Positions 35,901 to 64,000 of a stretch of DNA of 64,000 nt are shown here, piece after piece. The stretch's first letter is position 1; each line of letters begins with the position of its first letter. The notes under the pieces are model-generated. The model had not been told where the DNA came from. It was given only the letters and a program-made list of their open reading frames with translations, and searched no databases. The translations under genes and the position numbers were made by a program. Source of the stretch: Obrimoposthia wandeli (Eukaryota); NCBI GenBank assembly GCA_977020255.1, contig CDROCS010000091.1:124001-188000 (forward strand). Direction: 5' to 3'.

Positions 35901-38900
35901 GTGTTGATGTGTTGATGTGTTGACGTGTTGATGTGTTGATGTTTTGATGTGTTGACTTGTTGATGTGTTGAGAATTACTTGAACTGGAAATCATTTGCCT
36001 CGTTGTTCTAAAATTCTAACAGACGGAGCTTACACATATTGGTCTGCCATTTCTTCTTCTCCGATCTTTGATTTGATGAATATGTCAGAAGAGATAATTG
36101 TTACACAAGAAAGAATATTTAAGGAAAATATGAAAATTGCTGTATTTTATAATAAGTATTTTTATTTCACTTATTTTACTAAAACGTCTCATCAAAAAGT
36201 TCATGTACAGATATTTTTGTTGGGTTAGCGGTTTTAAATCATGGCCTGACTTTTCTAATTGTTTTTATCAAAAATTGTGCTCAACGTTTTCAATCAAAAG
36301 ACAGCATAAAATAAAATGAGATTTACCGCGACCAAAGGCAACACAGCCGAATTCTCAACGGATCCCATTCAACTTATTCTAAGCTGCCGGTTCAGAAGTT
36401 TAGCTGAAGAAGAGACACAGCGAAATCACCACACATTGGGCCCGATAAAGTCAGCCTTGAAAACAGAGTCGAGAATAAATCGAGTTAGCAGAACGACCGT
36501 GAGAAATGGAGACTCGCGACTGTCAGTGAATCCTTCGACAAAAAGCAAGAAGACAGCAAAAGTTCATACTGCAAAGTTATATGAAAATTGTCTTGGTGTA
36601 AAGGAAATTATGAGCGTAAATACTTTTAAGAAAACGTCGAAGGAGGCATACTGAAATGTTCCTGTGCTTATGCATCCCAAAATCATTTAAAGATTGCAAA
36701 TTATTTCCATTCTCCTTATGTATTTTTACTTTAGACTAGATCTACATTTTCCAAAGTCGAGAAGATACTTACTTTCACTTTAAACTTTTTTATGTACTTA
36801 TTATTATGAGTAAACTATTGTTTTATAATTTTATTCAAATTATTTTTATCGATTTATTTTACACAAATGAGATGCATAAAATCTCAATTAACTTTTAGGT
36901 TTAATAGAAACTGTCTGACAATTAAAAAAAAATCAATTCGTCAGCAAATTTTCATAATCATTATATTTGATGGACCGTAGACAAAAATGTTTAAAAGAAT
37001 CATTGTAAGTCTGTCATTTACATTCTCTTTTCGTGGGAGTTTAAGTGGCTATGGATAAAAGAAGGATTAAATAAATCATTAATTTTCAGCTGTTGTACAG
37101 ATTCATCAAAGTTAGTTTTACATATATTAAAACACCTTTACCAACTTTCTTGGAAAGAAGGAATGACATTTTTGCACATTTTCATAGCTATTTTGTGCTT
37201 CAACTCGACAACATTTCTTTAGATCACGAATTGTGTTGGGTTTGTATTGGTGGACCTTCGTCTCCAATTGTTTCAGACAAAACACCTAAAGGGAAGGCCC
37301 AGGAAGACTTATCGGCGGTCATTCAGAACTGAGTCCGAAATTCTCTCACAGCACAGAATTAGGTCCAGGTGCTCCGTCTTGTTTATTTGGAGTGTATTTG
37401 GTTTACTAATGATGACATAAATAATCTCTGGTGCATGACAAAAATAGGTGCTGTTGACATTTTCATCAATAGAGAGAAACATCAAATACATTCCTTTGTG
37501 AGACACTCTTATGTCCACCCACACATGCACACAGGGACTTGAATGGTGACTGATGTGTATGACTAAACATTTCTGTGCCCCTTAACCGACAATTGACACC
37601 ATCCAATCGGAATGTCGACTCATCGGATAATGTTTTCATCGTCATTTATTCTTTCCAACAAATCTTCAATATCACTTTCTCCTCGCCCACAGAAGGTCAC
37701 TCGATTTGGGAAAAATCTATACACCTCCAGTGTTCCTAAATCTTTCACGTACAATGTCCTGATAAACATTCTTTCGTAATATTTTTCATGTTTTCAAGAA
37801 AGGGGCCACAGATATCTGTAATATTGACCAAATGAGAAAAAATAAAACTTTGAACAGTTTCAAATAAATTAATATATCACACGACATTAAATAAATTTAT
37901 TATATCAATCTTTTGTAAGCATTCTGTAATGAAATTCTTTTTCTTTCAAACGATTTTGGAGCTTAATTAGTTCATGAAAATTCAAAAGAAAAACTATATG
38001 GATACCGATAATAAATAGGCTGTTATCTCATCTGTTTGAACACAAAAAATCACTAAGTGATTCCTCGAATGCAAATAGACTCAGATTTATATTGAAACAA
38101 ATTTATTGTCAGCCAATTTCAAATCAAAATTCATAAAAAAGTTAATTTTTAAATATTTGATTTTTTTTACAATTTTTGACCTACGTTTTAAAAACTTTTA
38201 TTGTTCCATTTTCTTCTATTTCACAGTATTGTATTGTCAATGCTTGTTTACACCCACGACCCAAGTTCTGGCTCTAGTAATATATTCCTTTAAAAAGTTA
38301 TAAATGTATCTCCTTAGTTCAAATGAATATTCATAATGAATATTCAGTGTAATTACGGTTAGTAGGACCATATCGATACGTTTACTGGTATCCGTTTTGA
38401 TTTTCTTCTAGAAGATTCGTAAATAAAGTTAGTGTAGTAAAACAAATCTCAAATACACACCAATATTGACATTTCAGCTTAATAAATTCCAAATTAGGCT
38501 ATATTTGACTTTCGCATTTGTTTTATGAGCGTCCTTGCCTGTCTCCAGTTGACCTACTTGAGGGCGACCGCGGGATTTCGGGGAACGCTGGATCCGACCC
38601 CGGTAAGGAGATAGCGCGCGTACATGGCCCCAGAGTGCGGTTGACCTTGAGTTGCTGCCTTCTCGAAGTGACGGAAAGCGAGGATCTGAAATGGATATTG
38701 AGCAAATTGGCAAGCTCTTGAATAAGTATCTGTTGTTAGTAAAATATAATTTGTGTTTGCCTTTTAGTTGATAACTATTTATATTTTGTCCTTTAAAGAA
38801 AGTTTAAAATTTTGTTATTTAAAGATATTAATTCTCATTACATCTAAAATGGGAACACATTTTGCGGGAAGTTTTATTACTTAATTTTAATTTGATGGAA

Positions 38901-42916: not shown

Positions 42917-43730
42917 CTGATGCGTCATTTCTGGTCTCAAATATGGGTCAAATACGCTTCATCTGAGACTACAAATACAATTACAAATATTCGGTAGGAA
43001 GCCAGGAAATTTCCATGCATAAAACATGTCTTTCGTGTAGGCGTAATCTCTTTTGATTGTTTTATTGATTAACACAACTGATTTAGAATTTTTCAGCCAG
43101 CTGACAAATTTACCAGGGGTCAATTTTGCTTCAAAAGGGTTCCCCTATCAATAAGAACTGGGATATGAAGTTTGAGAGATTCAAAGGTTCATACAGAACT
43201 GACTAGAAGATGTTCATAAGCAAAGAAGTCACAATGATGAATTGATTAGGAAATAAAGATTTGAGGGAAGACTGATATCTATGAAGATCTCTCTGAGGAA
43301 TCTCTCTATGAAGATTTCTCTTGTGGCAAGATATAACTTTCGTTTTTGAGGGTTTTGCAGTAGGTCTAAACGTGACTTAGATTTCACGAAATGAAAAGAA
43401 GGCCGTGATGTCCTCAGTGTAGGTGTTAGGTTTATGTTAGGTTTGAGAATTAAGAAATTTAAATATTTTAGTCGATTAAATACTAAAATAAAAATCCTTG
43501 AAAGCAAGGTTGAAAATTAAATTAAAATATTAATTTTAGTTTTAAAATTAAAATTAGTGGAATTTAGGGTAAAAATTAGGAGGACCACGAAGGTCGTGTA
43601 TGGTGTGAGGTGTATATAAGTTTAGAGTTAATTAACCAAAAGGGCAAAAAATTAATTAAGGAAAAGTCATTAATTTAAGAAGCTAATTAGTAACGTCAAT
43701 CAAGAGACGTTATTCAGGAAAAACTATTTT

Positions 43731-43912
43731 CAGCTGTCGATTGAGTGACAGATTCCAGTTCGCCCATTTTCAACGAGGTAAGCACATTTTCGTGCAGTAA
43801 GCTAAAATTCATTTTCAGCTGTCAATTGATTGACATTCCTTGCCTCTCCGGTATATTCAGAACTCAATAGTTAGCAGCTGTAAATTGATTGACGTTCATT
43901 GCCTCTATATAA
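43731..43912 (+). promoter_or_regulatory. Putative LTR promoter: three CAGCTG(T)nnATTGAnTGAC motifs and a TATA box
   Basis: CAGCTG at 43731, 43816 and 43875, each followed by attga(g/t)tgac; TATATAA at 43906. Confidence 0.5.
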
Positions 43913-44040
43913 GGCAGATAGGAAAAACACAAATCACAAAACATACGGGATCAACTACGAATCAACTACAGAGTCGACCGGACCACAAATCGGTAAGTAG
44001 TGATTTTGTGTTAGAGGAAAATAATTGATTTAGATAAATT

Positions 44041-44476
44041 ATTCAAAGTCAAAGTGCAAGTGATAAATCCGTGTATTCAAAGTCAAAGTGCAAGTGATAA
44101 ATCCGTGTATTCAAAGTCAAAGTGCAAGTGATAAATCCGTGTATTCAAAGTCAAAGTGCAAGTGATAAATCCGTGTATTCAAAGTCAAAGTGCAAGTGAT
44201 AAATCCGTGTATTCAAAGTCAAAGTGCAAGTGATAAATCCGTGTATTCAAAGTCAAAGTGCAAGTGATAAATCCGTGTATTCAAAGTCAAAGTGCAAGTG
44301 ATAAATCCGTGTATTCAAAGTCAAAGTGCAAGTGATAAATCCGTGTATTCAAAGTCAAAGTGCAAGTGATAAATCCGTGTATTCAAAGTCAAAGTGCAAG
44401 TGATAAATCCGTGTATTCAAAGTCAAAGTGCAAGTGATAAATCCGTGTATTCAAAGTCAAAGTGCAAGTGATAAAT
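44041..44476. repeat. 34-bp perfect tandem array, ~13 copies
   Basis: Unit attcaaagtcaaagtgcaagtgataaatccgtgt, with no spacers. Confidence 0.97.
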
Positions 44477-44565
44477 TTCGAAGACGATTCCGAAAGACCC
44501 TACGGACCCTGCATCGGACGTCCCACTAGTCGCAGTAACTGGTAAGAACACCAACTAAACCATTC

Positions 44566-44999
44566 ATTGCCCCTAGTTGGCAATTAGGATAAATTCATTG
44601 CCCCTTGTTGGCAATTAGGTTGTTTAACATATTTTAAACATATTCATTGCCCCTAGCTGGCAATTAGGATTTCCGACTCTTTAACAAAATCATTGCCCCT
44701 AGTTGGTAATTAAGATCAGCCATTTATTCATTGTCCCCAGCGACAATTAGGAATCATACCCAGACTTTTTGCCCGTAAGATTCATTGTCCCTAGCTGACA
44801 ATTAGGTTCATTCATTGTCCCTAGTTGACAATTCGGATAAATACTCATTGTCCCTAGTTGACAATTCGGTAAGACTCATTGTCCCTAGCTGACAATTCGG
44901 CTCGTTCATTGTCCATAGTTGACAATTAGGAGTAAGTTTTTATTGTCATCTTGACAATTAGGTTTTTAGGAGACCCATTGTTCACAGTGGACAATTCGG
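44566..44999. repeat. Array of 12 short inverted repeats ATTG(C/T)C-N5-7-G(G/A)CAAT
   Basis: For example attgcc-cctagtt-ggcaat, attgtc-cctagct-gacaat and attgtc-atctt-gacaat, separated by variable linkers. Confidence 0.85.
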
Positions 45000-45488
45000 G
45001 TCAAACACACAGCAGATAGAGTTAAGGAACCAAGAAACTTTATCTAGAGATAAGAAGTAGGAGCAAAGAAATTTAAGAGAGTTGCGTTATAGATTAACCA
45101 ACCTAAGTAAGAAGAATAAACCTAAAAGCTTAATCACCTGAACGTAAAATCGATACGTGGTTCATCCCCACTTCTTGTAGAGACTTACAGAAGTCCTTTA
45201 GGAATTTTATCATACTTTTTAGAAATACGTACATAAACGTATTGTTGTGTTAGTTACGTGAATTACAAATAAACAATTTCCTACATTAGAACAAGTTGTT
45301 TTTGCACCCTTCAGACTAAGAGACATCAAATCAAATACCTTCAGATAGTACAAGAGATTAGGCAACCATAACACTAAGTAGGCCACGACCAACTTTAAGA
45401 CCTGCTTCTAATCGAACTCACGTTGGGGCCCTCCGCACATTAAGAGGCTCTATACCAAGTTTCGTATAGAAACCCCAACATATTAAAG

Positions 45489-45506
45489 TGGTGCCCCGAG
45501 TGAGGA
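45489..45506 (+). promoter_or_regulatory. Primer-binding site complementary to elongator tRNA-Met 3' end
   Basis: TGGTGCCCCGAGTGAGGA is the reverse complement of TCCTCACTCGGGGCACCA, one mismatch from the vertebrate elongator tRNA-Met end as I recall it. Confidence 0.8.
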
Positions 45507-45536
45507 TAGCTCGTCGGACACAGCGAATTCACGTAG

Positions 45537-46530
45537 ATAAGTTTCAGATAATTGAGAATAAGTTTCAGGTAAATAGAATAAGTACAGATATTAAGAATAA
45601 GTTACAGATATTAAGAATAAGTTTCAGATATTAAGGATAAGTTTCAGATAATTGAGAATAAGTTTCAGGTAAATAGAATAAGTACAGATATTAAGAATAA
45701 GTTACAGATATTAAGAATAAGTTTCAGATATTAAGAATAAGTTTCAGATATTGAGAATAAGTTTCAGATAAATTGAGAATAAGTTTCAGATAAATTGAGA
45801 ATAAGTTTCAGCAGAAGAATATAGACAATTGAGAATAAGTTTCAGAAGAAGATATAAGTAAATTGAGTTAAGAATTTGATAAGTGTTGAGAAATCGAGTA
45901 GATTTGTTCCTCGAAGTTAAGAATTTGATAAGTGTTGAGAAATCGAGTAGATTTGTTCCTCGAAGTTAAGAATTTGATAAGTGTTGAGAAATCGGGTAGA
46001 TTTGTTCCTCGAAGTTAAGAATTTGATAAGTTTTTGAGAAATCGAGTAGATTTGTTCCTCGAAGTTAAGAATTTGATAAGTGTTAAGAAATCGGGTAGAT
46101 TTGTTCCTCGAAGTTAAGAATTTGATAAGTTTTTGAGAAATCGGGTAGATTTGTTCCTCGAAGTTAAGAATTCGATAGGTTTTGAGAAGCCGAGTGGATT
46201 TGTTCCTCGAGTCAGTAAATTTTATAAGTGAGAATCGAGTGGATTGATACTCGAAGTAATTAATTGAATAAGTTAAGTCGGGAGACTCTGTCCTCGAACT
46301 AATTAAAAAGATAAAATCGTAAATAAATTTGATAAAGTGAGAATCGAGTGGATTGATACTCGAAGTAATTAATTGAATAAGTTAAGTCGGGAGACTCTGT
46401 CCTCGAACTAATTAAAAAGATAAAATCGTAAATAAATTTGATAAAGTGAGAATCGAGTGGATTGATACTCGAAGTAATTAATTGAATAGGTTAAGTCGGG
46501 AGACTCTGTCCTCGAACTAATTAAAGAGAT
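45537..46530. repeat. Leader tandem arrays (~20-bp, 49-bp x ~7, 109-bp x ~3)
   Basis: ataagtttcagata.. units at 45537-45845; 49-bp period from 45867; 109-bp period at 46228, 46337 and 46446. Confidence 0.9.
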
Positions 46531-46903
46531 AAAAAATTGTAAAATAAGAATTGTGAAATAAGATAAAAATAATAAGTATATTGATATCGTAAACGAATAC
46601 ATAATTGATAAGACAACGGATAATAGAAAAGGACCCGCGTTTAATACTAGAAGACAAAGCCAGATTCCCAAGGAAGAGACAAATAATAATAAAGTTAACC
46701 GAATTGAACAAGTTCCCCAAACAGATAACAAAGTAACAAAAAAGACTAGAGTCGAAGAAAACGTATCAGAAAGAGACGTAAATCAATCAGCAGTTTCAAC
46801 CGATAGTTTTGATCTGACTGAGTTATTTGGTGACATAAACCCAGAAGAAATTGATAATCTTGAAGTTCAAAACCCAGAAGAAATTGAAATTGCCAATCCA
46901 GTA

Positions 46904-49900
46904 GTGATTGAAGAAGTTCAAGTAAATAATATTGAAGGAATAGTTGAAGACGATATAGTTGAAGATATGGCTCAACCAGGAGCTCAAGCAGATATTAATG
47001 CAGGAAATCATGTAGGTGACATGAATGCCGAGCAGTTGGCACAAGCTTTAAATGCGACGTTGAGACCCAATTTTTCAGGATCATTGCAGATTACAAAGTT
47101 TAAAGGAGATGAGGAAAGTATTTGTGACTTCCTCGCAGAATATTCGAGTTGTGCAGATGTTCAAGGATGGAACGATAAAGAAAAATGTGTCAGAGTACAG
47201 GCACATTTAACCGGATTAGCACTTGAAGTGTATAAACATTTGACAGAAGCAGAACGTTTAGACTGGCCAACGTTGGAAAATGCTTTTATTGGAAAATTGG
47301 TATTAGGAGATTTAGCCAAAGTAAATAAGCGACTCATGAGAGAACGGAAACAGAAACATGATGAAGGCGTGAATGAATACGCGTATGTTTTGAGAACCTT
47401 GGCCGCAAGAGCGTACCCAAGAAGAATAATGAGAAATCAGGACGGTATTCCTGTACCTCAAGAAGCACAAGCAGCGGAAAATGACCGGAACCAAAATGAA
47501 ATGGCAGAGGTTTTGTTAGATATATTTAGAGGAGGATTGAAAAAGGATATTAAAGTGTTATTAGCAGTATCGGATACAAATGATTTTGATAACGCCGTGC
47601 GAAAGGCGAGAGAGATAGAGAAAAATATAAAAAATAACGCAGCATTGGCAATCTACGCAATGACTGCAGGTGACGACGATAAGACAAAGGTCTTCGTGAA
47701 TAAAACAGAACCGAGTAATTTTCAGAATCGAAATTATGGACAAAATAAGTTTGAAAAAGTAGATGAATCCAGTAACGGAAATAGAGATAATTTCCGAAGT
47801 AGGAATCGAGATGATTCGAGAGGTAGAAATAATAGTGAGTCTTGGAACAGGAATCGAGATGATTCAAGAGGTAGAAATAATAATGATTCGTGGAATAGAA
47901 ATAGAGATGATTCCAGGAATAGATTTAATAGAGATGATTCAGGAAATCGTCAACCTTGGAGAGGAGACGATAGGAATTATAACGCCAACAGAGGAGAGCG
48001 AAGCGACTCTCGATTTGGAAATAATACAGGAAATAGTGACGGAAGATTCAATAATCGAGGAAGCGGTTTTGAATCGAATTTCCGAAGAAATGATTTTAGA
48101 GGACGCTACGATAATAGACAGAATAGTCGTCGAGTACAGTTCGAAGATGAACAAAATAAGATAGATATTCGAGGGAGAATAATGTGTTACACATGTAAAC
48201 AAATGGGTCACTATTCGAGAGATTGTACGAGAAGTAAAGAGTTCGGAGCTAACAGATTTGGAAATAATAATTTCGGTAATAATAATTTTGGAAATAATTA
48301 TAGAGGATATAATTCACCTCCGCCATGGAATAGAGGTGGTGGATATACTCCACAGCCATGGAGACTGAATAATCAGTATACAGATAGACAACAGTCACCA
48401 GGTAGATACAATAACTATGCAGATAGACAGCAAGGAGCTGAGAGATACAATAATTACGTAGGACAGCAAGGAGCTGAGAGATATAATAATTCTGGTAGAT
48501 ATAATAATAATAATGTTGACAAGACAAATAGTCGTGAGAGTTCGCCGAAACCGAAAGGAAATTTTAGTTATGTAAGCGATGACAGTGATAGGAATCGCGA
48601 AACCGAGCTGCGACGCGAAATAGATTTTGAGGATAGTGATAGTAAATTTGAACGAATGTTGGGAATAATTAAAGATTCACCACATACAAAGATGGCAAAT
48701 TCATCTACGTTGTCGAAACAAGAGAAAAGTCTACACTCAAGAGAAGAGATGAATGATTTAATGAATAGAATATTAGAAGCATATGAGACACCAATAGAGA
48801 AAACGTGTAACGCACAACCTATGACTGATCATGTGGAAGCAGCGAGAAATGCTACGAGTATGGAAGATGTAAAAAAGATAATTAGTGAAGCTAAGGAGAC
48901 GTTGAATCAACCGTTAGATGAAACGAGTGAAGCTCCAGAAGTTTTGGCCAAATTGCAAACAATTAAAGTGCACCGATTGGAAGAAGTACGTGCAGAATTG
49001 GTTAAACATAGTCATGATAACTTGGGTTACAAAGAAGTACCCCGAGGATTATTGAAAGGTTATGGTCGTTATGTACAGAGATCAAACCAAAAAGGAACGA
49101 TGAAAATTTCACTTCGATTAATTTCCGGACAGATAATACATGAAAAACTTAACGTGTATCAAACAATGAAAACGATTCGGAAAAAGTTGGCTGAGAAACT
49201 TGAAATTGATGGAATGAATATGTTGTTCCATTATAAAGGAAGATCACTAGATGATGAGGACGTACCAGTCGAGTTTGGATATCCGATAGGAAATGAATTA
49301 GAGGAAAAAATTGATGTCATCACTGTAGGACGTCAAGAGTTAGTAGATAATGAAGGATTAACCGAGATACTGAATTCTGCGTTAGAAATGATAAAAACGC
49401 CTATAGAAATTTTAGACAGTTCAAGTGAAAGCGAAGATAATGATGTAGCTGAAGCTTGGAACAAGACATCCACACCAGAACCGTACGTAACTGAATTACA
49501 AGACATGAATTTAGAAAATGAGTTGACAACTCCAGTGGTCGAGGTACCACCAGAACCAGATATAATTCCAATCAGACAAGATGAAGTCACGGATACAGCT
49601 AACCAAGTGAGACAAAACGAAACCGTAACCCAACTAGTAGGAGAAGACGAAGTCTCCGAGATTGTAGATTTGGATTCACCAATTTGGCATGCCGCATACA
49701 AAGATAGACAAGCAGAGCAAATGATGCGACAAAGTGAAGAGATTGGCCATGAAGAAGGACCAAGTCAAGAGATACAGTATAATGGTGAAACGTATGATCC
49801 AGGAGAGAATCAAACTGAGTATCAGTATTTTCGAAGAGGACCTGGAAGACCTAGAAAAGGCGAAAGTATATTACGAAATGTTCTAACAGCACCACAAACT

Positions 49901-50662
49901 GATGAAGAGAGACATCTAAGTATTGGACAGTTAGCAGCGTCATTAGAGCAGTATAGTGCAGAGAGGAATGAAGATATCAGATGTGATATGAATTCGGAAA
50001 CTCCAAGTAGTAAAGATATACTTACGGGAATTCTCAGGCAAGTGAAGCCGAAGTTGTTCAAAATGTACAGAGATGAAACAACCGATATAACAGACAATTT
50101 GACTAAAGCAGTCAGATCACAGATGTCTGCAGTAAAGAGAATGACCGCGAATAATGTATACCATGCATCCATAGATAGATTTTATGACGGTGAAGTTTTA
50201 GCGAGACTATGTGGAAACCAGACTACAAATAAAAAGTTAATTACAGCGATCACATATCTATGTTTCCAATTGACGGAACGAACGAGCCAACCTCACGAAG
50301 TCAAACAAGGAATAAATGAAGCGATGTATTTGATCGAGAATGTGTTACAGAGACGAATTGACGAAAATGGAGGTTGGGCAAAATTAAGTGACTATGCTAA
50401 AACCATTGTGGAAATGAATGAAGACGATGACGAACAATGTCATGAGAATCGTCAAAGGGAAAATAAACAATACCGTCCGAAAGAGAGAAACAATCAACCA
50501 AATATGTCCACAACAATGATGATGATGATGTTAGTAATGTTTATGGGAATGCAACAGGCATCAGGATTGATAGCATATGACTGTAGCATACCAAAGATGG
50601 GACAAAAGTATTCACTGCTTGACAGCGAAGACTGTCCAGAATCACAACCAAATCAAAACTAG
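46904..50662 (+). CDS. gag: Gag polyprotein: capsid, CCHC knuckle, ubiquitin-like, AT-hook, Bcl-2-like, env signal peptide
   Basis: ITKFKGDEESICDFLAEY...QAHLTGLA...RKQKHDEGVNEY (Ty3/Gypsy capsid) and CYTCKQMGHYSRDC (48185-48226). First in-frame ATG at 46967. Confidence 0.9.
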   Translation: MIEEVQVNNIEGIVEDDIVEDMAQPGAQADINAGNHVGDMNAEQLAQALNATLRPNFSGSLQITKFKGDEESICDFLAEYSSCADVQGWNDKEKCVRVQAHLTGLALEVYKHLTEAERLDWPTLENAFIGKLVLGDLAKVNKRLMRERKQKHDEGVNEYAYVLRTLAARAYPRRIMRNQDGIPVPQEAQAAENDRNQNEMAEVLLDIFRGGLKKDIKVLLAVSDTNDFDNAVRKAREIEKNIKNNAALAIYAMTAGDDDKTKVFVNKTEPSNFQNRNYGQNKFEKVDESSNGNRDNFRSRNRDDSRGRNNSESWNRNRDDSRGRNNNDSWNRNRDDSRNRFNRDDSGNRQPWRGDDRNYNANRGERSDSRFGNNTGNSDGRFNNRGSGFESNFRRNDFRGRYDNRQNSRRVQFEDEQNKIDIRGRIMCYTCKQMGHYSRDCTRSKEFGANRFGNNNFGNNNFGNNYRGYNSPPPWNRGGGYTPQPWRLNNQYTDRQQSPGRYNNYADRQQGAERYNNYVGQQGAERYNNSGRYNNNNVDKTNSRESSPKPKGNFSYVSDDSDRNRETELRREIDFEDSDSKFERMLGIIKDSPHTKMANSSTLSKQEKSLHSREEMNDLMNRILEAYETPIEKTCNAQPMTDHVEAARNATSMEDVKKIISEAKETLNQPLDETSEAPEVLAKLQTIKVHRLEEVRAELVKHSHDNLGYKEVPRGLLKGYGRYVQRSNQKGTMKISLRLISGQIIHEKLNVYQTMKTIRKKLAEKLEIDGMNMLFHYKGRSLDDEDVPVEFGYPIGNELEEKIDVITVGRQELVDNEGLTEILNSALEMIKTPIEILDSSSESEDNDVAEAWNKTSTPEPYVTELQDMNLENELTTPVVEVPPEPDIIPIRQDEVTDTANQVRQNETVTQLVGEDEVSEIVDLDSPIWHAAYKDRQAEQMMRQSEEIGHEEGPSQEIQYNGETYDPGENQTEYQYFRRGPGRPRKGESILRNVLTAPQTDEERHLSIGQLAASLEQYSAERNEDIRCDMNSETPSSKDILTGILRQVKPKLFKMYRDETTDITDNLTKAVRSQMSAVKRMTANNVYHASIDRFYDGEVLARLCGNQTTNKKLITAITYLCFQLTERTSQPHEVKQGINEAMYLIENVLQRRIDENGGWAKLSDYAKTIVEMNEDDDEQCHENRQRENKQYRPKERNNQPNMSTTMMMMMLVMFMGMQQASGLIAYDCSIPKMGQKYSLLDSEDCPESQPNQN
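49100..49328 (+). other. Ubiquitin/SUMO-like domain within Gag ORF
   Basis: MKISLRLISGQIIHEKLNVYQTMKTIRKKLAEKLEIDGMNMLFHYKGRSLDDEDVPVEFG follows the beta-grasp pattern. Confidence 0.65.
49990..50400 (+). other. Bcl-2-like domain within Gag ORF
   Basis: BH3-like LRQVKPKLFKMYRDETTDITDNL, BH1-like IDRFYDGEVLARL and BH2-like VLQRRIDENGGWAKL, in the expected order and spacing. Confidence 0.6.
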
Positions 50663-52370
50663 AAGTTCAAGGTGTTGAAAACTACTTTGTGTATCAGGAT
50701 GTTGATAAAGTACAAGTAGAAGTGAAAGAATGTTCAATCCATTCAAGTTATCACGAATTCTATTGGGGTCATAGAAGTTTATGTCGGAAATCACACCTAC
50801 CACACCGTACAAGGCACATAAGGTTTTGCCGAGAGATTGCGAAGACGCATTTCGAACGGGAACAATAGAGGTAGACAAGAATTACAAACCTGAAGTAAAA
50901 ATTGGAGTGAGACGATACAAAACAGTCACGAGAGTCGGACAACGATGGGCTGATGGATCTTGTGACGGAGAAACAAAAAACGTGCGTGGAACCAAAGTAT
51001 CTGAGTTAGTAATGGATGTAACTTACAAAATCGAATTAAAAACATGGACCGCCAATTTTGATAAAAAGACACAACTAATGATGAAGTATCCAGAATGTAA
51101 AATGACAGATACATCTTGTTTTACAGGTGAATCCACAATTGTGTATAACATAAATCCGAAACAATGCTCTTTAGTATTTTTGAAAGAGATTAGCTTTAAT
51201 AAAATAAAAGGATTCCTGTATAATAAAGATGGAGAAGGATTCCTGTATAATAAAGTTGGAAAAGGATTGCTAAATGAAACAAGACCAATTCCAATGACAA
51301 AGACACCTACACTGTTAATGGCAACATCAATAGAAGAAGGATTGATATTTATTAAAAAGAGAAACAAAGCGCGATGCGGAATGACTGTTAGTACCACAAA
51401 CTATCCAGGAATAGTTTTGTCTAAAGAAGCAATAGCATTGGCAGAAACCAAGCTAAAACCAAAAGATATGCAGCTACACACGTATTTTAATAATAAAATT
51501 GATTTCTATTATCATAAAGGATTGATGCAAATGGAACAGTTATATCGAATGATGATCGAAAGAGATTGCCAGCTAAACAAAGAGATCGTAAGAACAAAAT
51601 TAGCATTAGCTATTACGAATCCAGACATGGTAGCACCATTATTACCCTTGGATGAAGGAGTATTTGCTAAAACCATGGGAGAAGTATTGTATACTTACAA
51701 GTGTAATAAAGTAGAGGTACAGTTGAGGAAAACAGATCGATGTACGAGTGAATTGGCAGTAACGTATAATTTAAAAGATCTTTTTGTTGAACCAATCACG
51801 AGAATGTTACTTCCAAAAGACACACCAACTAAAGAAATCAGCTGCTCTAATATAATGGCACCTGAATATCAGATGACGAATAATCTATGGATAACGTTAC
51901 CTGATCGAAAGCCAACGACAACCCCAGCGATGATAAGAATGACGAATCTTAAAGGTAAAATGAAATTCCAAGCGGTGGAAAATATGGAGAACGCAGGATT
52001 GTACAATGAAAAAGATTTAAAAGCAGCGTGGAACGAAATAATGTTTCCAGTAAGAAGAGCCAGAGTACTTACAGAGATGGTACATCGAGCATTACCGCCA
52101 GGAGCGAGATATGCGAATTTCGATATGTTATTATCGCCAAGTAATTTCAAGGAAGCAGCACATCAGACACTTAGAAAGATGTGGGGGAAATTCCTTGTTT
52201 TAGGACAATTATTTTCGGGTATCATAGGTATTTATGTTATAATTAAATTTGTGCAGGTAATTATAGCCCAGGTGTTGTCTACGTATAGTTTATACAGGAT
52301 AACCGGAATCACCTGGCAACTTATAATTGGATGTTTTCCAGTTTTAGCAAAATATCTAATGCACCATCAT
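50504..52370 (+). CDS. env: Env: chuvirus/Monjiviricetes-like class III fusion glycoprotein (frameshifts near 50655 and 50780)
   Basis: Signal peptide followed by GLIAYDC; GEVLYTYKCNKVEVQLRKTDRCTSELAV; C-terminal hydrophobic MWGKFLVLGQLFSGIIGIYVIIKF...YSLYRITG. Confidence 0.82.
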
Positions 52371-52721
52371 CACGAGAACGAGTTGCGAGCCCTCAAGAAG
52401 GAACAACACCAAACGAGAACCATGATGAGAGAACCAAGAAACTATCGAGACGACAACGACGACGATAATGATAGTCCAGAAGTATATGCAAAGATACCAC
52501 GAAAACCAAAGATTCCGTTACCAGACAAGGAAGAAGTGGCGTTAAACCTATATCCAATGAAGGAATTGAAGGAAGAGAAGGAAAATTTCAAGAGAGGCAT
52601 CTTAATGACAAGATGGCCTAAAGTGAGCTACAGTGAAATTCCACAAGCAGAGGAAAAAGACAAAAAAGATAATTCCAGAAGAATTCTGAAATCTAGAATA
52701 TCAAATGAGAATCCAAATGCT

Positions 52722-53006: not shown

Positions 53007-53255
53007 GAAGGAATAATTATACTACCAAACAACAAGAGTTATAAGAATGACAGTTCAGTGAGAGAGATAAAAATGTTGAGAGGACCTATAGTCGAAAAGG
53101 AAAAATACACTACGTTCCGTATGGGAAGTTCGTACCCAGACAGAAAACAGGAAGCGCTAGCAAAGTCGATACTTCACTACAAAAATGTAAATTTCGGACC
53201 ACAAGATACGACGAGGAGAAAAATAACATACGTAAATCTGTCAGAAAGGGATCCC

Positions 53256-53480
53256 ATGAGATTCGAGAGAAAGAGGCGAAATATATTAGAACAGTACTAT
53301 TCAAAAGGAATGGCACGTAAAATGGCAAGATCAGGTTTAGAAATGTTAAACGCGACAAGCAGTTATGGTCATGAGATAGTAGTACGATGCGTATGGTGTA
53401 GAGTAAAGTTCAGAGAATGGGAAAAGAATGAAAACCCAATGAGACGTCATAAAAGAGATGCACCAAATTGTCCATTTCTT
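53256..53480 (+). other. BIR domain
   Basis: CVWC-x16-H-x6-C (RCVWCRVKFREWEKNENPMRRHKRDAPNCPFL), the exact canonical BIR spacing. Confidence 0.9.
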
Positions 53481-53649
53481 TTGAAACTGAAAACGTCAAA
53501 CGTACCAGAAATCCAAAAAGGAAAAGCACCCGATTTCGATTACAGTGACGGGATTCCAAAAGGAGAATCAGCTCTAATAACAGGTAGAGTAATAACGAAT
53601 AGTCGAATTGAAGATATATTCGAAGTTATGCGAGAAGTGAACGAATGTG

Positions 53650-53845
53650 ACGAACAGTATCGAGAAATAACTTTCGAACCCAAGACTTAAAAAATTGGCA
53701 AAAAGGACTTTTTGCTATAAAAAAGGATGGTAAAGACGTAATTAAATGCCACAAGTGTAAAAAAGAACGAATTATCGACAGATATACTCTTGAGCTACCT
53801 AAGAAAATTTTACATCATGAATTTTGCGAATTTTGTACTTTTAAA
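53650..53845 (+). other. Second, degenerate BIR-like / Zn-binding segment
   Basis: After a -1 shift: NWQKGLFAIKKDGKDVIKCHKCKKE...ILHHEFCEFC; spacing is non-canonical. Confidence 0.45.
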
Positions 53846-54126
53846 AACAAAATAAAGCAAAAAGAACAGAAAACAGAATGTATAATCGAATACCAAATCA
53901 CACGAAAAGAGATTTTGGCTCAACAAGACACACCGGTAGTGTCATTCGTGAGAAGATTATATCCAAAAGAAGCAGAAAGAATCAGAGAATTGGTAGAATT
54001 AAAAATAAAAACTACGCGAAACGGATACGGATCGATTTTGAATTACTGCGAGATAAAGATGACAGTACAATTGAAACAAAGAAGGAGTACATAAATGAAC
54101 TAGAATACGTACTAGAAGATCCGGAA

Positions 54127-54270
54127 TGCGCAGTTTGCATGGTCAACAAAATAGAAGTTGCCTTTCTACCATGCGGACATGTAAGAACATGTCGGAGATG
54201 TGCGAATGAAATGGTATCATGTCCGATTTGTCGAAGAATAATAGATCGACAAGTGAGAAACATTAGATTT
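54127..54270 (+). other. IAP-type RING-HC finger
   Basis: CAVCMVNKIEVAFLPCGHVRTCRRCANEMVSCPICRRII. Confidence 0.9.
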
Positions 54271-54357
54271 CACTATCCAAACATAGGAAGTGGACTGACA
54301 GAGTGTAATAATTCAATAAATACAATATACCATATGGGAAACATAAATGGAGCACAG

Positions 54358-57300
54358 CGACCAGCAGCTATCATTAGAGTAAATAATTTAAGAGTAAAAG
54401 CCTTGATTGATACAGGTGCTGTAGCTTCGATAGTAAGTGAAGACTGTTTGACAGAGGAACAGAAACGAACAATGGCAGAACCAGATGAATTCTTGGTATC
54501 AGTCAATGGAGACCCTGTAAAAGTGACGGGAATATTACCATGTACATTTATAATTGGACGTAATACGATCACTATACCAGTTAGAATCATGAAAGAATGT
54601 CCTGAACCTACAATTTTAGGAATGGATGTATTATCACAACTTAAAGGGATAAGTATTGATTTACAAGATCCAAGATTGAAGGATAGCACATCAAACAGAC
54701 AAATAAACCAAATTGATGTAATTATAGAGAATCCTATAAAAATCGGTAAAAGATCACAATTTCTCATTCAAGGTCACACATTATCAGAAGATAAAGGACC
54801 AGTTGTGTTCGAACCATCACGAGATTTCATAGAGAAATACGAATTACCAGTTGTGAGTACAGTATGCCTGATCGAAAACCACAAAATACCAGTTAGACTG
54901 ATGAATACAACCAACAATGACATCCTATTATACAGAGGAATGAGGTTGGGAAAGATAGCACAGATGGAGAATTCCACTGTATGCGCTATGAAACTCGATA
55001 AAGATACGAATGATTACGAAGAAATAGTAATCCAATCAGAAAGACTGACAACTAGAGAAAAGCAATTACTTGATCTAATACATAAATTTCCGAAAGTAAT
55101 TGCAAAAATCCATATGACATAGGAGAAACACCTGTCATAAAACATACAATACCACTGACAGAAGACAAAGTAGTCAGAAGAAGACCATATCGAGTACCAT
55201 TACAATTACAAGATGAAGTAAAAAGTCAGATTGAAGATATGTCTAAAACAGGAGTAATTAGACCGAGTTTTCGCCATTCTCAGCACCTGTGGTGTTGGTA
55301 AGAAGGATGGGAAAATGAGATTCTGTATAGATTTCAGAGAACTGAACAAGATCACAAGAAAAGATGTGTATCCATTACCTAGAATCGAAGAGATGCTCGA
55401 TAAATTGGGTAATTCAGATTATTTTACGACATTGGATTTGCAGAGTGGATACTGGCAAATCGAGATAGAGGAAGAGGATAAACACAAAACAGCCTTTTCC
55501 TGCGGAGATGGATTATACGAATGCGAAAAGATGCCATTCGGACTGACAGGAGCTCAGCAACATTTCAGCGTTGCATGAATTTTGTACTCGCATCGTGTGC
55601 AAACACGATGGTTTATATCGATGACATAATAATATTTTCAAAGAAAACGTTCGAAGAACATTTAAAAAATCTTGAAGTTGTATTTAAAAGACTGGAAAAC
55701 GCTAAATTAAAAGTTAAACCTACAAAATGCGAATGGGCTAAGAGGCGAAGTAACATTTTAGGGACATATAGTATCGAAAGAAGGCATTCGACCTGATCCA
55801 GCAAAGATCGAGAAAGTAAAAGCGCATTTAGCGCCAAAGACTGTTAAGGAGATACAGAGTTTTTAGGTCTTTTTTGCGAATTATTATAGACGATTTGTTG
55901 AACATTTTCCAGATATAGCAACACCATTGAGAAAGACGGCAGAGAGAGAAAAGATGAGAAGTTCATATGGGGAGAAGAAGCCCAACAAGCGTTCGAGCAT
56001 TTAAAAAGAAAGATTGATAAAAGCACCGATATTGCGTTTCCAGATATAAACCGACAATTCATACTTATGACAGATGCAAGTAACTATGCTGTAGGAGCAG
56101 TATTGGGACAAGAGGATGACGAAGGAAGAGAACACGTCATCGCGTATGCGAGTAGAGGATTAAACAGAGCTGAAAGAGGATACTCTGTTATCGAAAAGGA
56201 ATGTCTAGCCATAGTGTATTCATGTAGACAGTACAGACACTATTTGCTAGGACAAAAAGTATTCCTGTATACAGATCACAAACCACTACAGTTCTTGTAT
56301 AAACATAGAGATGAGAGATGAGTAGATTAAACAGATGGTTTCTAAAATTGGCCGAATTCGATCTAGAAATCCGTTATAGAACCGGAAAGTCGAATGGCAA
56401 CGCAGATTGAAATTTATCGAGATTGACAAATGTAGACGAGAAAGGAAACATAATTCCAGAAGAAGATGTAGAAACCAATGATCAAAAAGGAGAAGCAAAT
56501 CTACTGACGATTTTGCTAAAGACGGGTAAAATAGACAAAGAGATCATCAAAGAACAGAAAGAAGATGAAGAACTGAGTCTAATTAAAGAATTGTTGGTGA
56601 AAAGGAGATCTAAACCGATGAAATGACGAAAAAATACTCGATAAAAGAAGGAATCTTGTATATTGTCAATAACGTCGGAAAGATAGTAGTAGTAATTCCG
56701 AAGTCATTGAAAACAGTATGATCAGTATCACGACGGAACACTAGGAGGACATCTGTCAGGGCGAAAGACAATAGCCAGAATCAAAGAGAACATGTACCAT
56801 TGGGATGAGTATGGAAGACGACATAAAACAATGGTGTAAACAATGTAAAGTATGTTTAACCAGAAAAGACGCATGGAACTCGTACTAAAGTTCCGTTGAA
56901 ACCAATGCCACTTGTTCCTTAGGCACCAATGGAATTCACAGCGATGGATATATTAGGACCATTGAGAGAATCAAGTAAAGGGAAACAAGTACGTCATAGT
57001 ATTTACGGACTACATGACGAGATGGTAGAAGCATATCCATGCAGGGCAACCAGAAAGCTGAAACAATAGCGCAAATCTTAGTGGAAGAGATAATATTTCG
57101 ATACAGGTGCCTAGAAAGTTGTTAACGGATCAAGGAAAGAACTTCACTGGAGAAGTCATAAAAGCAGTATCGAAGATATTCGGAATTATGAAGTTACAAA
57201 CTTCACCCATATCACCCACAGACAGATGGTCTGGTAGAAAGGTTTAATAAAACTTTATGTATGATGGTACAATCCTATTGCTCAGACAAGCAAGAGGATT

Positions 57301-59369: not shown

Positions 59370-59760
59370 ATGCCACCAATGAGTGAGATCATTCCAGGTA
59401 AGTTATACCTCGGAAATGTAGAGGATGCAACAGATGAAAGAAACTGTTGGAACAAAGGGATAACATACGTGATCAGCGTTACAATGAATCACAAATCACA
59501 ATATCAGACGAAATCAGAGCTATGACATTAAGAGTAAAAGACTCAATGGACGCTAATCTTCCTCCAGATAGTTCATTAGAAACAAACGAAATACTTCACA
59601 GAGAACTCGGAACCGAGAAAGTGTTGGTACATTGTCAGAAGGAATTTCTCGATCAGCAACTCTAGTATTAGCATATCTAATAAAGACTAGACAGATGCAG
59701 GTACTAGAAACGCTAAAATACCTACAGGAGAGAAAGAAGTATTGCAAACCCAAATCTTAA
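59370..59760 (+). pseudogene. Dual-specificity protein phosphatase (frameshifted)
   Basis: MSEIIPGKLYLGNVEDA...GITYVISV, VKDSMDANL, KVLVHCQK/GISRSATLVLAYLI; restoring one G gives HCQKGISRS. Confidence 0.85.
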
Positions 59761-59859
59761 TTTTTTGGGACAGTTGGCAATTACCAACTTCTGTTACAGA
59801 ACAAAGACAGTTGGACGACATTCCTGAGGATCAAAGGAAAGAATTCCTCCAAGCATTAT

Positions 59860-60340
59860 CATTATTGAGTTATTCTTGGCCAGGTCGACAAATACACAGA
59901 TAATGCAAAGTATTTTATATCATCAGGAGATATAGACACTGCTGGATTAAAGTTCCACAGTATCAACCGAGTAATCAACATTTGAGTCGAGCAAGAGATA
60001 ATTAGTCTGTCAAAATACTGAAGATGACACCACTCGATACATACATGCTTCCAATCGAGGAGATAAACGTGCACAACAACATCTGACGAAAGTGACTCAA
60101 ACCATCAAGCCGAAGTCACAGAAGAGCAGCGTTTATCAGAAAAAAGGTACGATGTTAGCGCCTATCATAGGTATCCTTGTTGGTAAGTACCATGGTCACA
60201 CGCCAGAAGAAGCGATGGTCTACATCAAACAGAATAGACCAGATACGGAATTCAACCCGTTACTCGTTCGAGAAATAGAAATTTTTGAAAGAGGAAGCAA
60301 CAACGAGAAAGAAATGAAACTACAACAACAGTGCCCAGCT
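59860..60340 (+). pseudogene. Second DSP-like domain, apparently lacking the catalytic Cys
   Basis: GLKFHSINRVINI and EEAMVYIKQNRPDTEFNPLLVREIEIFE match DSP N- and C-terminal patterns; the P-loop position reads VYQKKGTMLA. Confidence 0.5.
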
Positions 60341-63019
60341 TTCAATACCAAAGATTGCTAGCGATAGAAGCATTAAGTTGTCTAATGCCAAATAACAGGA
60401 GCACAGGAGACTAGGCTCTAACCACGGGAAATAGCTCCTGGTTCAACAGAAATCACAACTACACCATACAGTACCCATACTGGCACTGATAGTGCTATTA
60501 GTGTTGTTAGGACTAATTGATGTGTGGATCATCCGAAAATATCTTCGATCTATGAGAACCGACAGTAAAGATTTCAGTTTGTAAAGATAGAAAGACCAAA
60601 TGGACCAACGAACAAAGTGCTTGTGTGTATTTAGACACTTAAGAAAGGATCGAGGACAACATAGTAAATGAAGCGATATTTTACCCTAAAACAGAATGAA
60701 TCAATTCCGAATAGATTATGAAGCTGACCGACAGCACACATGACCGAATATCAACAACATTCGCCGGATGCAAGCGGAGAAAACGAAGGTTGTAAAGGAA
60801 ATACAAAAGATGCTGATACAAAAGGACCAACGTATATTCAACGGCGATGTCATCAAAACACGTGAGTATGGAAGTAAGTGATAGTGAAACAATGGAAGGA
60901 CATAAAACATGCTTGTCCGCAAAAATGAATTCGGAAAGTTGACGATACAGGTAAGCCAGTACAGTTGAGATTGGCATCGGACGAAGATGGAATCGAGGAG
61001 ATGTCAAAACAACGACAGACAACAAAACGAACCAATCAAGCAGATATCTCTCAAACGATTGATAATTAAAACCCTTTGCAAAGGTCAGTCAAGGCCCTGT
61101 ACCGTTGCACAAGGATTGATTTATGGAGTAGTAATTAGTTGGTACTACAAGCCATGCCGACCAGTAAAGCTGAAATAGTGACATTATCCGAATATAATCT
61201 ACATTTGAAATCTAGACAACACCCTAGAAATAATCAAGACATCCTACAGTAAAGCTGTAATGATCATGTGTGTAAAGGATGTCCAGGACGGATATGTATA
61301 GTTCCAGCGACCAAAATGAAAACACTTAATAGACATTATGGAATTGATGTTGTCACATGTGAAGACTACACATTTGGACAAACTAAAATAGTACTTCTCA
61401 GTGACATCAGCAAAATGCACACAAAATTTAAAATATTAACCATCAAGGAAGTAAAGGAATACCAGCAGTACGTTATGGTATTCTAGAATTGAATTAATCA
61501 ATACTGGCACTGATCATTGGATTTATAATATTAATACACTCATCTTGTTTTGTTGTACAAAGATAGAGTCGAGATCAAAAGAAACGTCATGATCTCATAA
61601 GACGAACAGTCAAATGAACTTACAAAAATTCAACACAATTATACCAAGACCACCATTTCTAGATGAACCAGCACCAGAGTACCAGCCAACGATATGAACA
61701 TATTGAGGAAAGACCGTACTATATGAGAGTAATTTGACTTGTTCATTGAAGTTCCTGAGTTTGGAATCGAACGATCATAGGAATCATGCTGATCGTACAA
61801 ATCCACCCACCTACCAAGGCTAGATTATGAGATCATGATCAGTAAATGGAGACAAGACGTAATACGGGCAGTATACATACAGAAATTCCCTACTAAAAAC
61901 AAATCACGTGTAGACATTTCATCTACAGACGTCAGCAACTGACAATATCGATCAGAAATTGCTATGTCATCCGACAAGGTCAGAATAAAATCGACCAAAA
62001 TACGCGATTACAATTTAATATTATTGTGACATCATGAAAGAGTGTGCCTACGGATAACAATATCAAAGGAAGCGGATTATCAAAGTATCCGAACAAAGTC
62101 ATTAATATTGCCCTAGAGATGAGCGCATCTGGAAAGAGTGTCGACAGGATTATGATCACAGGTAGACGACGTAAAGCCGTATAGATTCCGTTAGGATATT
62201 TTTCAGATTGCTAGAAACCGACAGCGTGACAGTAATGTGTCCCAGCAGATGGCGGAATCAGATTCGAAATCAAAGCCAAATGTTGAGAACACCACATTTT
62301 AACACAGAATGTCTGTGTAATCAGATTGCCAATAATTCTACAGAGACCTCGATATAATCATGATAATAACAGGTGAAATATTCTACATAACTCTAAGATA
62401 CCAGAACCGTCGATTTCGTAGATACAGTATAAGTATCAAACCCAGAAAAATCATTCCCAAAGACCAATCTGTGAAAGAAGGCAAAAGTAAGCGAAAGTAG
62501 AAACGACATTCGAAACCGACAGTGAAAAGTAAAGAAACAAAGGAACCAAACGAAGAAAAAGGTCAATTCCAGAACCAAAGTACAATTATTAAGAGGACAA
62601 GGTAGAGAACGATCCACTAGATCCCAAACATCATTTCCAATCCAAAATAATAATACCTGTTCCATCAGAAACAAAACACCCCATCCCGAATTTTTAGAAA
62701 ATCGGACATAATACATGAAACCGGTAAAACCCATGGAAATGTCATTCGAACCAACAAACATAGGAAATGAAGTATGATTATAAAGCATCAGACAGCGGAA
62801 TAACAGCGGTCAATGCCCTAGTGGAATAGCCGTAGTGTCAACAGCAGTGTAGTTCTATTGACAATCGTGTGCGTAAAAGGCAATCAAGTATGCCCAGAAT
62901 ACGACGAAAATGCGAAAGATTGCGATGCTGTGACACACCCATCATGGAGAGTAGAATTGCGACCCTTACCTCCGCCTCCATCAAGATATGATAAGGTCAG
63001 AGGGGGTTGTAGATAAATT

Positions 63020-63280
63020 AGTGTGTGAAATATGTAAGAAATATCTAGAAGTGATTGTACAAATAGTAGAAATATATAAAACTCATGTAGAAATTAATCA
63101 TCATCATGTATTTAGAATGTCGAAAGAGATACTTATGTTTGAAGATCTAACCGAACGAAGAACAAGACCCGAAACCTGCAACCATTTACACCACGAGGAA
63201 TGTTTATCGACATGGATCCAGAACTTATGAACAGTTCAGGACATTCAACATACTTGTTGCCCTGTCTGAAGACAGAATTC
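63020..63280 (+). pseudogene. RING-H2-like finger remnant
   Basis: CEIC...CNHLHHEECLSTWIQ...CCPV*RQ, with in-frame stops. Confidence 0.5.
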
Positions 63281-63448
63281 ATAAGATTCATCATGTTAGA
63301 ACCAACCAAGAGGATGTATTCTGTTTGGAGAATTTAGGAGAATCTTGGTGTTATTACTGTTTGTCAGATCGGCAAAATCAGACCACTTTTGTAAACATCA
63401 CACAACCACCAGTCCTCAATCAACCCAAATTTAGCATCAACCCTCGTA

Positions 63449-63620
63449 ATGTCACGGAAATGTTCCATCTGCTACGAAAAGGAGCATCGTGGACTTCTAC
63501 CAAGCCCAACAACTGCGACCACCTCTTCCGTCAGATGCCTCGAGACGTGGATCCCCATTGCCAACAGCAACAGCCCCTCGACTTCCCAACCTGCCCGATG
63601 TGCAGGCAACCTTCTCAGTA
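63449..63620 (+). pseudogene. RING-HC finger (frameshifted)
   Basis: CSICYEKEHRGLLPS/PNNCDHLF/VRCLETW/FPTCPMCRQ across alternating frames. Confidence 0.65.
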
Positions 63621-64000
63621 CACTACGTGTACAACCGAGACAGCTTTCAGGCAGTGGTACCCGTATACACTGCTGGAAAACCATCTGCGATTGCTGGTGC
63701 TCGTTCTGCGTGGAGGAGCAGCACAAGGCCGGCCCAATTCCCAACAATAATCGAAGGTAACTTTCTGACTTGGGCAATGACATCATGAACTACCCTGTGT
63801 CGCATCACTTGATAAATTCGCTACCATAATTGCTTAATCACTATTATATAATCTTGTGAACTGTAAATTGACCATTACCATTTTTATGTATGATGTTTAA
63901 CTGAAATTGTAATTATTATACACAATTTCTAAAAGACAATTTTTTATGCTTAGTGTGAATGCGTAAACATTGCCTAAATCAGAAACAAAACTCAGTAGGA

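What the first reader, a model, noticed from the sequence alone, without database searches (positions are those of the whole stretch)
53256..54270. IAP-like BIR(-BIR)-RING cassette embedded in the polyprotein between two proteases
Seen: a canonical BIR (C-x2-C-x16-H-x6-C), a degenerate second BIR-like segment and an IAP-type RING. They are separated only by 1-nt shifts and sit directly between protease 1 and protease 2. Known: BIR-BIR-RING is the architecture of baculoviral IAPs and Drosophila DIAP1. Inference: a captured caspase inhibitor/E3 ligase released by the element's own proteases.
Basis: partly seen in the sequence, partly recalled or inferred. Interest (0 to 1): 0.86.

Follow-up and report, generated by a model that had tools for sequence, protein, structure and literature searches.

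The report
Anti-death gene inside giant retrotransposon polyprotein
A giant, recently multiplied virus-like jumping gene carries a conserved cell-death-inhibitor (IAP) module between two protease domains of its one long protein; such a module is already reported for flatworm Burro elements, but here related elements hold other cargo in the same place, so the proteases likely cut out a swappable payload.

Summary
Real, and largely a known kind. Earlier notes of this scan describe the same family on other contigs of this genome. The window holds a damaged copy of a ~24-kb, high-copy, env-bearing Ty3/gypsy element of Burro type. BIR, RING and both proteases are confirmed. In 44 of 70 other copies PR1-BIR-BIR*-RING-PR2 lie in one open frame; breaks are scattered; the module is under purifying selection (dN/dS about 0.2). 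A BIR+RING 'B-IAP' with anti-apoptotic function is already published for planarian Burro1 (second-hand). Added here: the module is BIR, derived BIR, UBA-like, RING, closer to cIAP/XIAP than to BIR-BIR-RING. It is homologous to free-standing IAP genes of two Polinton families in this genome. The two proteases appear older than the IAP: 9 of 15 env-bearing relatives have both, with zinc fingers, ankyrins or other sequence between them. Release by the element's proteases and caspase control are inferred, not shown.

The parts
43433..46320 (+). 5' LTR, approximate ends, rich in internal tandem repeats
   Evidence: matches both ends of other copies and the stretch after the window
46562..50500 (+). 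gag region: retrotrans_gag-like part, one CCHC knuckle (48185-48226), weak ubiquitin-like (~49094) and weak Bcl-2-like (50189-50377) segments
   Evidence: Pfam: CCHC E 1e-5, gag E 0.009, ubiquitin E 0.14, Bcl-2 E 0.06
50504..52460 (+). env, Monjiviricetes-type fusion glycoprotein; frameshifted here, in frame with gag in other copies
   Evidence: PF24664 E 1.8e-79; gag-env-PR1 in one frame in L014 and L017
52731..53024 (+). protease 1 (accessory type), DTG at 52773
   Evidence: Pfam E 7e-6; groups with accessory proteases of relatives, 92/86, not starred; dN/dS ~0.1
53151..53255 (+). N-terminal extension of the IAP module
   Evidence: aligns with the starts of Polinton-borne and library homologues
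53256..53483 (+). BIR domain 1, canonical zinc-ligand spacing
   Evidence: PF00653 E 2.6e-9; ligands kept in 39 of 39 copies
53658..53830 (+). derived BIR (C-x2-C-x18-H-x3-C); two frame breaks in its start in this copy
   Evidence: hhalign 83%, E 9e-6; four ligands invariant in 9 of 9 rows, 5 of them near-copies; dN/dS 0.09-0.15
53909..54060 (+). UBA-like domain of cIAP/XIAP type; one frame break in this copy
   Evidence: hhalign 95%, E 2e-8; fold match to XIAP UBA Z 5.5, rmsd 2.4, 56 aligned; no Pfam hit
54090..54276 (+). IAP-type RING
   Evidence: PF13920 E 1.5e-12; cIAP1 RING E 7e-11; 8 ligands in 40 of 40 copies
54265..54282 (+). candidate processing junction after the RING (aromatic residue followed by proline); inferred only
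   Evidence: kept in 39 of 40 copies; lies near where free-standing homologues end
54364..54657 (+). protease 2 (canonical pre-RT type), DTG at 54409
   Evidence: Pfam E 3e-8; sits among pre-RT proteases
55290..57300 (+). RT, RNase H and integrase, frameshifted in this copy; integrase limits approximate
   Evidence: Pfam on window pieces and on a natural copy; collinearity
59380..60360 (+). dual-specificity phosphatase domains in the 3' part of the polyprotein, approximate limits
   Evidence: PF00782 E 9e-40, two stretches, in a natural copy

Best explanation
This is an IAP module (BIR, derived BIR, UBA-like, RING) fused in frame between two aspartic proteases in the polyprotein of a Burro-type giant enveloped gypsy element, and it is likely cut free by those proteases to act as a ubiquitin ligase that would dampen caspase-driven death of the host cell. 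Shown: the domains, their frame continuity in many copies, purifying selection, homology to free-standing Polinton IAP genes, and a two-protease layout with other cargo in related elements. Inferred: (1) translation as part of the 5,000+ aa polyprotein; (2) cleavage after protease 1 and just after the RING, freeing a ~375-residue protein whose ends match those of the free-standing homologues; (3) RING-dependent ubiquitylation of caspases or their activators, with BIR1 or the derived BIR as substrate recruiter; (4) a benefit to the element, and perhaps the host, through survival of cells that express it, as reported for Burro1. The IAP probably entered a slot that already existed between an accessory protease and the canonical one.
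For: One open frame from PR1 to PR2 in 22 of 31 DNA-hit copies and 22 of 39 protein-hit copies, and in 4 of 16 older env-chosen copies. Open frames around the cassette reach 5,487 aa. Module: 98 synonymous vs 56 non-synonymous changes over 378 codons in 40 copies, dN/dS 0.16-0.24; both proteases ~0.1. 117 of 143 IAP-like library proteins end exactly 13 residues after the last RING cysteine, so a free C-terminus is the norm. Polinton IAP ORFs start and stop near the module's ends. cIAP1 is the best solved match in sequence and fold (Z 7.6, rmsd 8.1, 108 aligned). Burro1 B-IAP is reported to protect stem cells from caspase-mediated apoptosis (PMC13465017 passages). 9 of 15 env-bearing relatives have two proteases with different inserts.
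Against: No cleavage, expression or activity data. The free homologues tolerate tails of 13-29 residues, so the need for an exact cut is weaker in this family. Either protease could do all the cutting; position does not show division of labour. BIR1 differs from cIAP1 BIR3 at several groove positions, and the UBA lacks the usual Met-Gly-Phe motif (roles recalled). Fold Z values are under 8, which the tool calls common; Foldseek gave nothing at E <= 0.001; the whole-module model was poor (pLDDT 41). The dN/dS set was chosen for open frames, and its changes are not independent. The protease tree split is not starred, and one accessory protease fell outside it.
Confidence: 0.6

Rival explanations
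1. The freed module is a ubiquitin ligase or scaffold aimed at immune signalling, restriction factors or the element's own proteins, not mainly at caspases.
For: cIAP-like BIR-UBA-RING layout; altered BIR1 groove; RING and UBA more constrained than BIR1 (dN/dS ~0.1 vs 0.22-0.33); the element also carries phosphatases and another RING gene.
Against: The Burro1 B-IAP is reported to act against caspase-mediated apoptosis (second-hand); a weak Bcl-2-like segment lies in the same polyprotein.
Confidence: 0.22
2. The IAP is made separately, from a spliced or internally initiated transcript, or works while still fused to protease 1 or 2; the flanking proteases have other jobs such as env maturation.
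For: Six of 15 env-bearing relatives manage with one pre-RT protease, and several two-protease relatives have only short, featureless inserts. Family tails are variable.
Against: No methionine aligns with the homologues' start; no shared stop follows the RING; module ends match those of the free-standing genes.
Confidence: 0.15
3. The module is a decaying passenger, or an assembly chimera, with no current function.
For: The window copy is broken; only 4 of 16 older copies are unbroken.
Against: Present in 15 of 16 env-chosen copies; contigs of two public runs of one sample cover it throughout; purifying selection on all four domains.
Confidence: 0.03

Closest known systems
Burro1/GYPSM1 giant gypsy elements of planarians and their B-IAP (PMC6431247 section 7 read whole; Lee et al. 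2026 Dev Cell seen only through passages of PMC13465017)
   Same: Giant LTR element with one huge ORF; env of mononegavirus type in frame between gag and pol; BIR (+RING) in the polyprotein; weak ubiquitin-like and Bcl-2-like segments in the described order.
   Different: About 24 kb rather than >30 kb; one CCHC knuckle; no MATH or ankyrin hit; phosphatases present. Two proteases, a derived second BIR and a UBA are not mentioned in the texts I could read; the primary papers, figures and supplements were not available and may show them.
cIAP1/2 and XIAP (PDB 3t6p, 2kna)
   Same: BIR, UBA, RING in the same order; best sequence and fold matches.
   Different: No CARD; second BIR has H-x3-C spacing; UBA lacks the usual motif; groove residues altered; embedded in a polyprotein without its own start or stop.
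Baculoviral IAPs and DIAP1 (BIR-BIR-RING; architecture recalled)
   Same: Two BIR-type domains and a C-terminal RING; carried by a virus-like element.
   Different: Extra UBA-like domain; DIAP1 matches BIR1 only (E 2e-7); retroelement polyprotein rather than a free gene.
GAG-ENV-POL errantiviruses of Platyhelminthes, Nematoda and Bryozoa (PMC13524379, passages)
   Same: Ty3/gypsy with a class III-type env placed between gag and pol.
   Different: That paper uses 'protease' once, in a general legend, and never 'apoptosis' or 'Burro' in its main text; its supplements were not read.
IAP genes of two Polinton/Maverick-like families in the same genome
   Same: 34-39% identity over the whole module, shared N-terminal extension, UBA-like domain and RING tail; one group with the element on the UBA-RING tree, 93/98, not starred.
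   Different: Free-standing ORFs of 301-341 aa next to A32 ATPase and rve integrase; one family has lost the second BIR.

Membership tests
IAP (BIR-containing, RING type) | At least one BIR with C-x2-C-x16-H-x6-C | tested here: met
   Pfam over cut-off; motif at 53388-53471
IAP (BIR-containing, RING type) | IAP-type RING with eight zinc ligands | tested here: met
   40 of 40 copies
IAP (BIR-containing, RING type) | RING at a free C-terminus | tested here: inconclusive
   As encoded, the RING runs on into protease 2; a free end needs cleavage, which was not testable. Norm of 13 residues in 117 of 143 library hits
IAP (BIR-containing, RING type) | Caspase binding, E3 activity or protection from apoptosis | not testable with these tools
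   needs bench assays
cIAP/XIAP-type IAP | UBA domain between BIR and RING | tested here: met
   hhalign 95%, E 2e-8, above 40 of 40 shuffles; XIAP UBA Z 5.5; Pfam alone misses it
Baculoviral/DIAP1-type BIR-BIR-RING | Two canonical BIRs | tested here: not met
   second BIR is below the Pfam cut-off and conserves H-x3-C across relatives; BIR-derived by profile
Burro/GYPSM1 | Giant LTR element with a single polyprotein of about 5,000 aa | tested here: met
   about 24 kb between LTR ends; open frames up to 5,487 aa
Burro/GYPSM1 | Mononegavirus-like env in frame between gag and pol | tested here: met
Burro/GYPSM1 | BIR in the polyprotein | tested here: met
Burro/GYPSM1 | Ubiquitin-like, Bcl-2-like and dUTPase-like segments | tested here: inconclusive
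   E 0.14, E 0.06; the PR2-RT spacer is homologous among relatives but has no Pfam or meaningful PDB hit
Burro/GYPSM1 | RT groups with named Burro1-4 sequences; planarian host | not testable with these tools
Ty3/gypsy (Metaviridae) | PR-RT-RH-IN order with LTRs | tested here: met

The most novel reading that the evidence does not exclude
A widespread clade of enveloped gag-env-pol gypsy elements uses extra, separately evolving aspartic-protease domains as brackets that define interchangeable cargo slots in one polyprotein (IAP here; zinc fingers, ankyrins or coiled coils in relatives; ankyrins between 3' proteases in one). The IAP cargo is a mobile-element-specific lineage traded between Polintons and retroelements.
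Probability: 0.4. Interest if true: 0.75.

Novelty: new variant of a known kind. Interest (0 to 1): 0.5.

Why it matters
The headline, an anti-apoptotic IAP inside a giant planarian-type retrotransposon, is already published with function. What is added makes its mechanism testable: predicted ends of the mature IAP, a candidate cut site, and a cIAP-like rather than baculovirus-like build. If the protease-bracketed slot is real, it explains how a single-ORF retroelement gains and swaps host-manipulation genes as large DNA viruses do, and it links the gene pools of Polintons and LTR elements.

Tried and rejected
Word-index protein searches with the module found one hit near its length and none longer; the HMMER search found three collinear relatives. 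Whole-module fold too poor to use. Foldseek on the BIR*-UBA model: no match at E <= 0.001. UBA piece alone against PDB sequences: nothing meaningful. BIR-only tree unresolved; the two host-like BIR exons among the 30 best own-genome BIR loci are distant (23% and 35% identity), so no donor gene was found. Direction of transfer between Polinton and retroelement is not resolved. No RNA holder listed. An env search of the own genome for sister families returned only this family in 26 of 26 loci examined. No third protease after integrase in this element. Frame counts were inflated by an overlapping pattern and redone; one search was in the wrong frame and unused. The idea that protease 1 is a recent duplicate left by the IAP insertion is rejected: 30% identity, separate tree groups, two proteases in relatives without IAP. 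Grohme 2018 and Lee 2026 are not held. Searches for multi-protease retrotransposons in print found no description; one search found no paper on RING-tail length, so that mechanism is recalled. PMC12440569 (Troyka; parts 1-3 of 5 read) is unrelated. No complex prediction was run, as a pass would only reflect solved RING or protease dimers.

Full report
Observation. The window from about 43.4 kb to its end is one copy of a large LTR element. Pfam on its open frames gives a CCHC knuckle, a Monjiviricetes-type fusion glycoprotein (E 2e-79), an aspartic protease, a BIR (E 3e-9), an IAP-type RING (E 2e-12), a second protease, RT and RNase H. A natural copy adds integrase and two phosphatase stretches. 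The window copy has three frame-breaking small deletions inside the cassette.

Is it in the polyprotein? The genome holds many copies: 40 other places at 96-99% DNA identity, and 150 of 150 scored protein hits at 98-100% with open frames up to 5,487 aa. PR1, BIR, second segment, RING and PR2 share one open frame in 22 of 31 fetched DNA hits and 22 of 39 fetched protein hits. Among 16 copies chosen by env alone, 15 are collinear across the whole cassette and 4 are unbroken. Over 86 copies the breaks are 158 frameshifts and 19 stops, with at most 5 copies sharing a 5-codon bin. So no programmed stop or shift isolates the IAP. LTR pairs of three other copies are 97.1-99.95% identical and span about 24 kb: a recent burst.

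Selection. In 40 equal-length unbroken copies (of 44 unbroken) the 378-codon module shows 98 synonymous and 56 non-synonymous changes: dN/dS 0.16 unweighted, 0.24 with transitions weighted six-fold. Per domain: BIR1 0.22-0.33, derived BIR 0.09-0.15, UBA-like 0.10-0.15, RING 0.08-0.12, both proteases about 0.1. The copies were chosen for open frames and are related, so the P values overstate certainty.

Anatomy. The best solved match is cIAP1 (3t6p, E 2e-15), with BIR3, a weak UBA stretch and RING collinear. An alignment with Polinton-borne and library homologues shows that the second segment keeps the RxxTF start, the LAxxG motif and four ligands spaced C-x2-C-x18-H-x3-C. Its profile matches canonical BIRs at 83%, E 9e-6; the next segment matches IAP UBA domains at 95%, E 2e-8; both beat 40 of 40 column shuffles. 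A model of these two segments, built without canonical cellular IAPs in the alignment (pLDDT 62), ranks cIAP1 first (Z 7.6, rmsd 8.1, 108 aligned) and the XIAP UBA second (Z 5.5, rmsd 2.4, 56 aligned) of 48,161 chains. These Z values are modest, and Foldseek found nothing significant. The module is therefore BIR, derived BIR, UBA-like, RING. Several BIR1 groove positions differ from cIAP1 BIR3 and the UBA lacks Met-Gly-Phe; by recalled structure-function data this weakens direct caspase inhibition and ubiquitin binding.

Relatives of the cargo. Of the 30 best own-genome BIR loci, 28 fall into two repeat families that lie next to A32-type ATPase and rve-chromo integrase genes, one also near a weak double-jelly-roll hit, so they are Polinton-like. 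Their free-standing 301-341 aa ORFs align with the whole module at 34-39% and begin and end near its ends. Three unnamed library proteins are also collinear. These eight sequences form one side of a 93/98 branch against 24 of 55 library IAPs with UBA and RING; long branches make this unsure. No host donor was found. An earlier scan note (e1-8577180) had already reported the Polinton link on other DNA; I confirmed it.

The two proteases. Of 120 listed long relatives (910 passed), 15 carry the same env family. With two env-less partial proteins and this element they form a 100/99 RT-RNase H clade against 12 outgroups. Nine of the 15 have two proteases between env and RT, six have one, and eight have another after integrase. 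Two pairs are near-duplicates, and the first protease is weak in some. The inserts are 77-389 aa: ankyrin repeats in one (Pfam E 3e-13), C2H2-like fingers in four (weak Pfam hits in two, visible motifs in all four), no family in four, and BIR in none. In a protease tree PR1 joins 18 other post-env and post-integrase proteases (92/86, not starred; one long-branch exception) and PR2 sits among pre-RT proteases. The two-protease state needs three changes on the RT tree, so gain and loss are not resolved. The accessory protease is best read as older than the IAP.

Mechanism. Shown: a selected IAP module inside a protease-flanked part of the polyprotein. Inferred: cleavage frees it. 117 of 143 IAP-like library proteins end 13 residues after the last RING cysteine, and RING dimer formation through the free tail is recalled. 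Here an aromatic-proline junction follows at positions 15-16 and is kept in 39 of 40 copies; such bonds are a recalled retroviral protease site type. Family tails of 13-29 residues soften this argument. I put protease release plus anti-apoptotic E3 action at 0.6, a non-caspase E3 role at 0.22, separate expression or action while fused at 0.15, and no function at 0.03.

What is known. PMC6431247 section 7 (read whole) describes planarian Burro/GYPSM1 elements with a ~5,000-aa ORF holding BIR, BCL2-like and ubiquitin-like domains, and env between gag and pol. PMC13465017 (passages) reports that Burro1's B-IAP, a BIR plus RING, protects stem cells from caspase-mediated apoptosis (Lee et al. 2026; not held). 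PMC13524379 (passages) covers GAG-ENV-POL elements without mention of apoptosis genes. PMC8532177, PMC11410931 and PMC7831173 were seen as passages only and add background. Two searches found no account of multi-protease LTR polyproteins, but the primary Burro papers, their figures and supplements were not visible and may show the layout. Earlier scan notes describe this family on other contigs.

Verdict. Real, selected and correctly seen. It is a new variant of a known kind, not a new kind. Interest 0.5. The protease-bracketed cargo slot is the part worth pursuing (probability 0.4, interest 0.75 if true).

Noticed in passing
window 62876-64000 and L013 (G000:C91:188001-198000): After the window the 3' end of the element plus LTR-like sequence repeats head to tail at about 5.2 kb spacing, unlike the simple 3' LTR of other copies.
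   Followed up: no
L014/L016, L020/L022, L026/L028: The two LTRs of three other copies are 99.95, 99.84 and 97.1% identical over 1.9-2.6 kb, so insertion was very recent; LTR middles differ among copies.
   Followed up: partly
window ~59380-60360: Two dual-specificity phosphatase stretches in the polyprotein's 3' part; noted before by this scan.
   Followed up: no
window ~63400-63760; L016:1137-1685: A separate RING-finger ORF of 183 aa near the 3' end of the element.
   Followed up: partly
L021:1-2199 (-), residues 247-294: Weak match to orthoreovirus p10 membrane-fusion protein (E 0.03) in the unannotated 3' part of the polyprotein; may be only a transmembrane segment.
   Followed up: no
proteins P0045, P0047, P0057, P0058, P0067, P0068, P0069, P0100, P0070: 8 of 15 env-bearing relatives have a further protease after integrase; P0070 has ankyrin repeats between two such proteases.
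   Followed up: partly
L046, L047, L048 (G000:C3084): Three identical-scoring BIR ORFs at about 7.15 kb spacing: a tandem array of a Polinton-derived segment.
   Followed up: no
window 34192-36015 and 21307-22112: An 8-nt tandem array and a second low-complexity repeat block give long spurious ORFs.
   Followed up: no
window 6533-7111 (-): 192-aa ORF that looks by eye like a Polinton capsid-type fragment (recalled likeness); no useful Pfam hit.
   Followed up: partly
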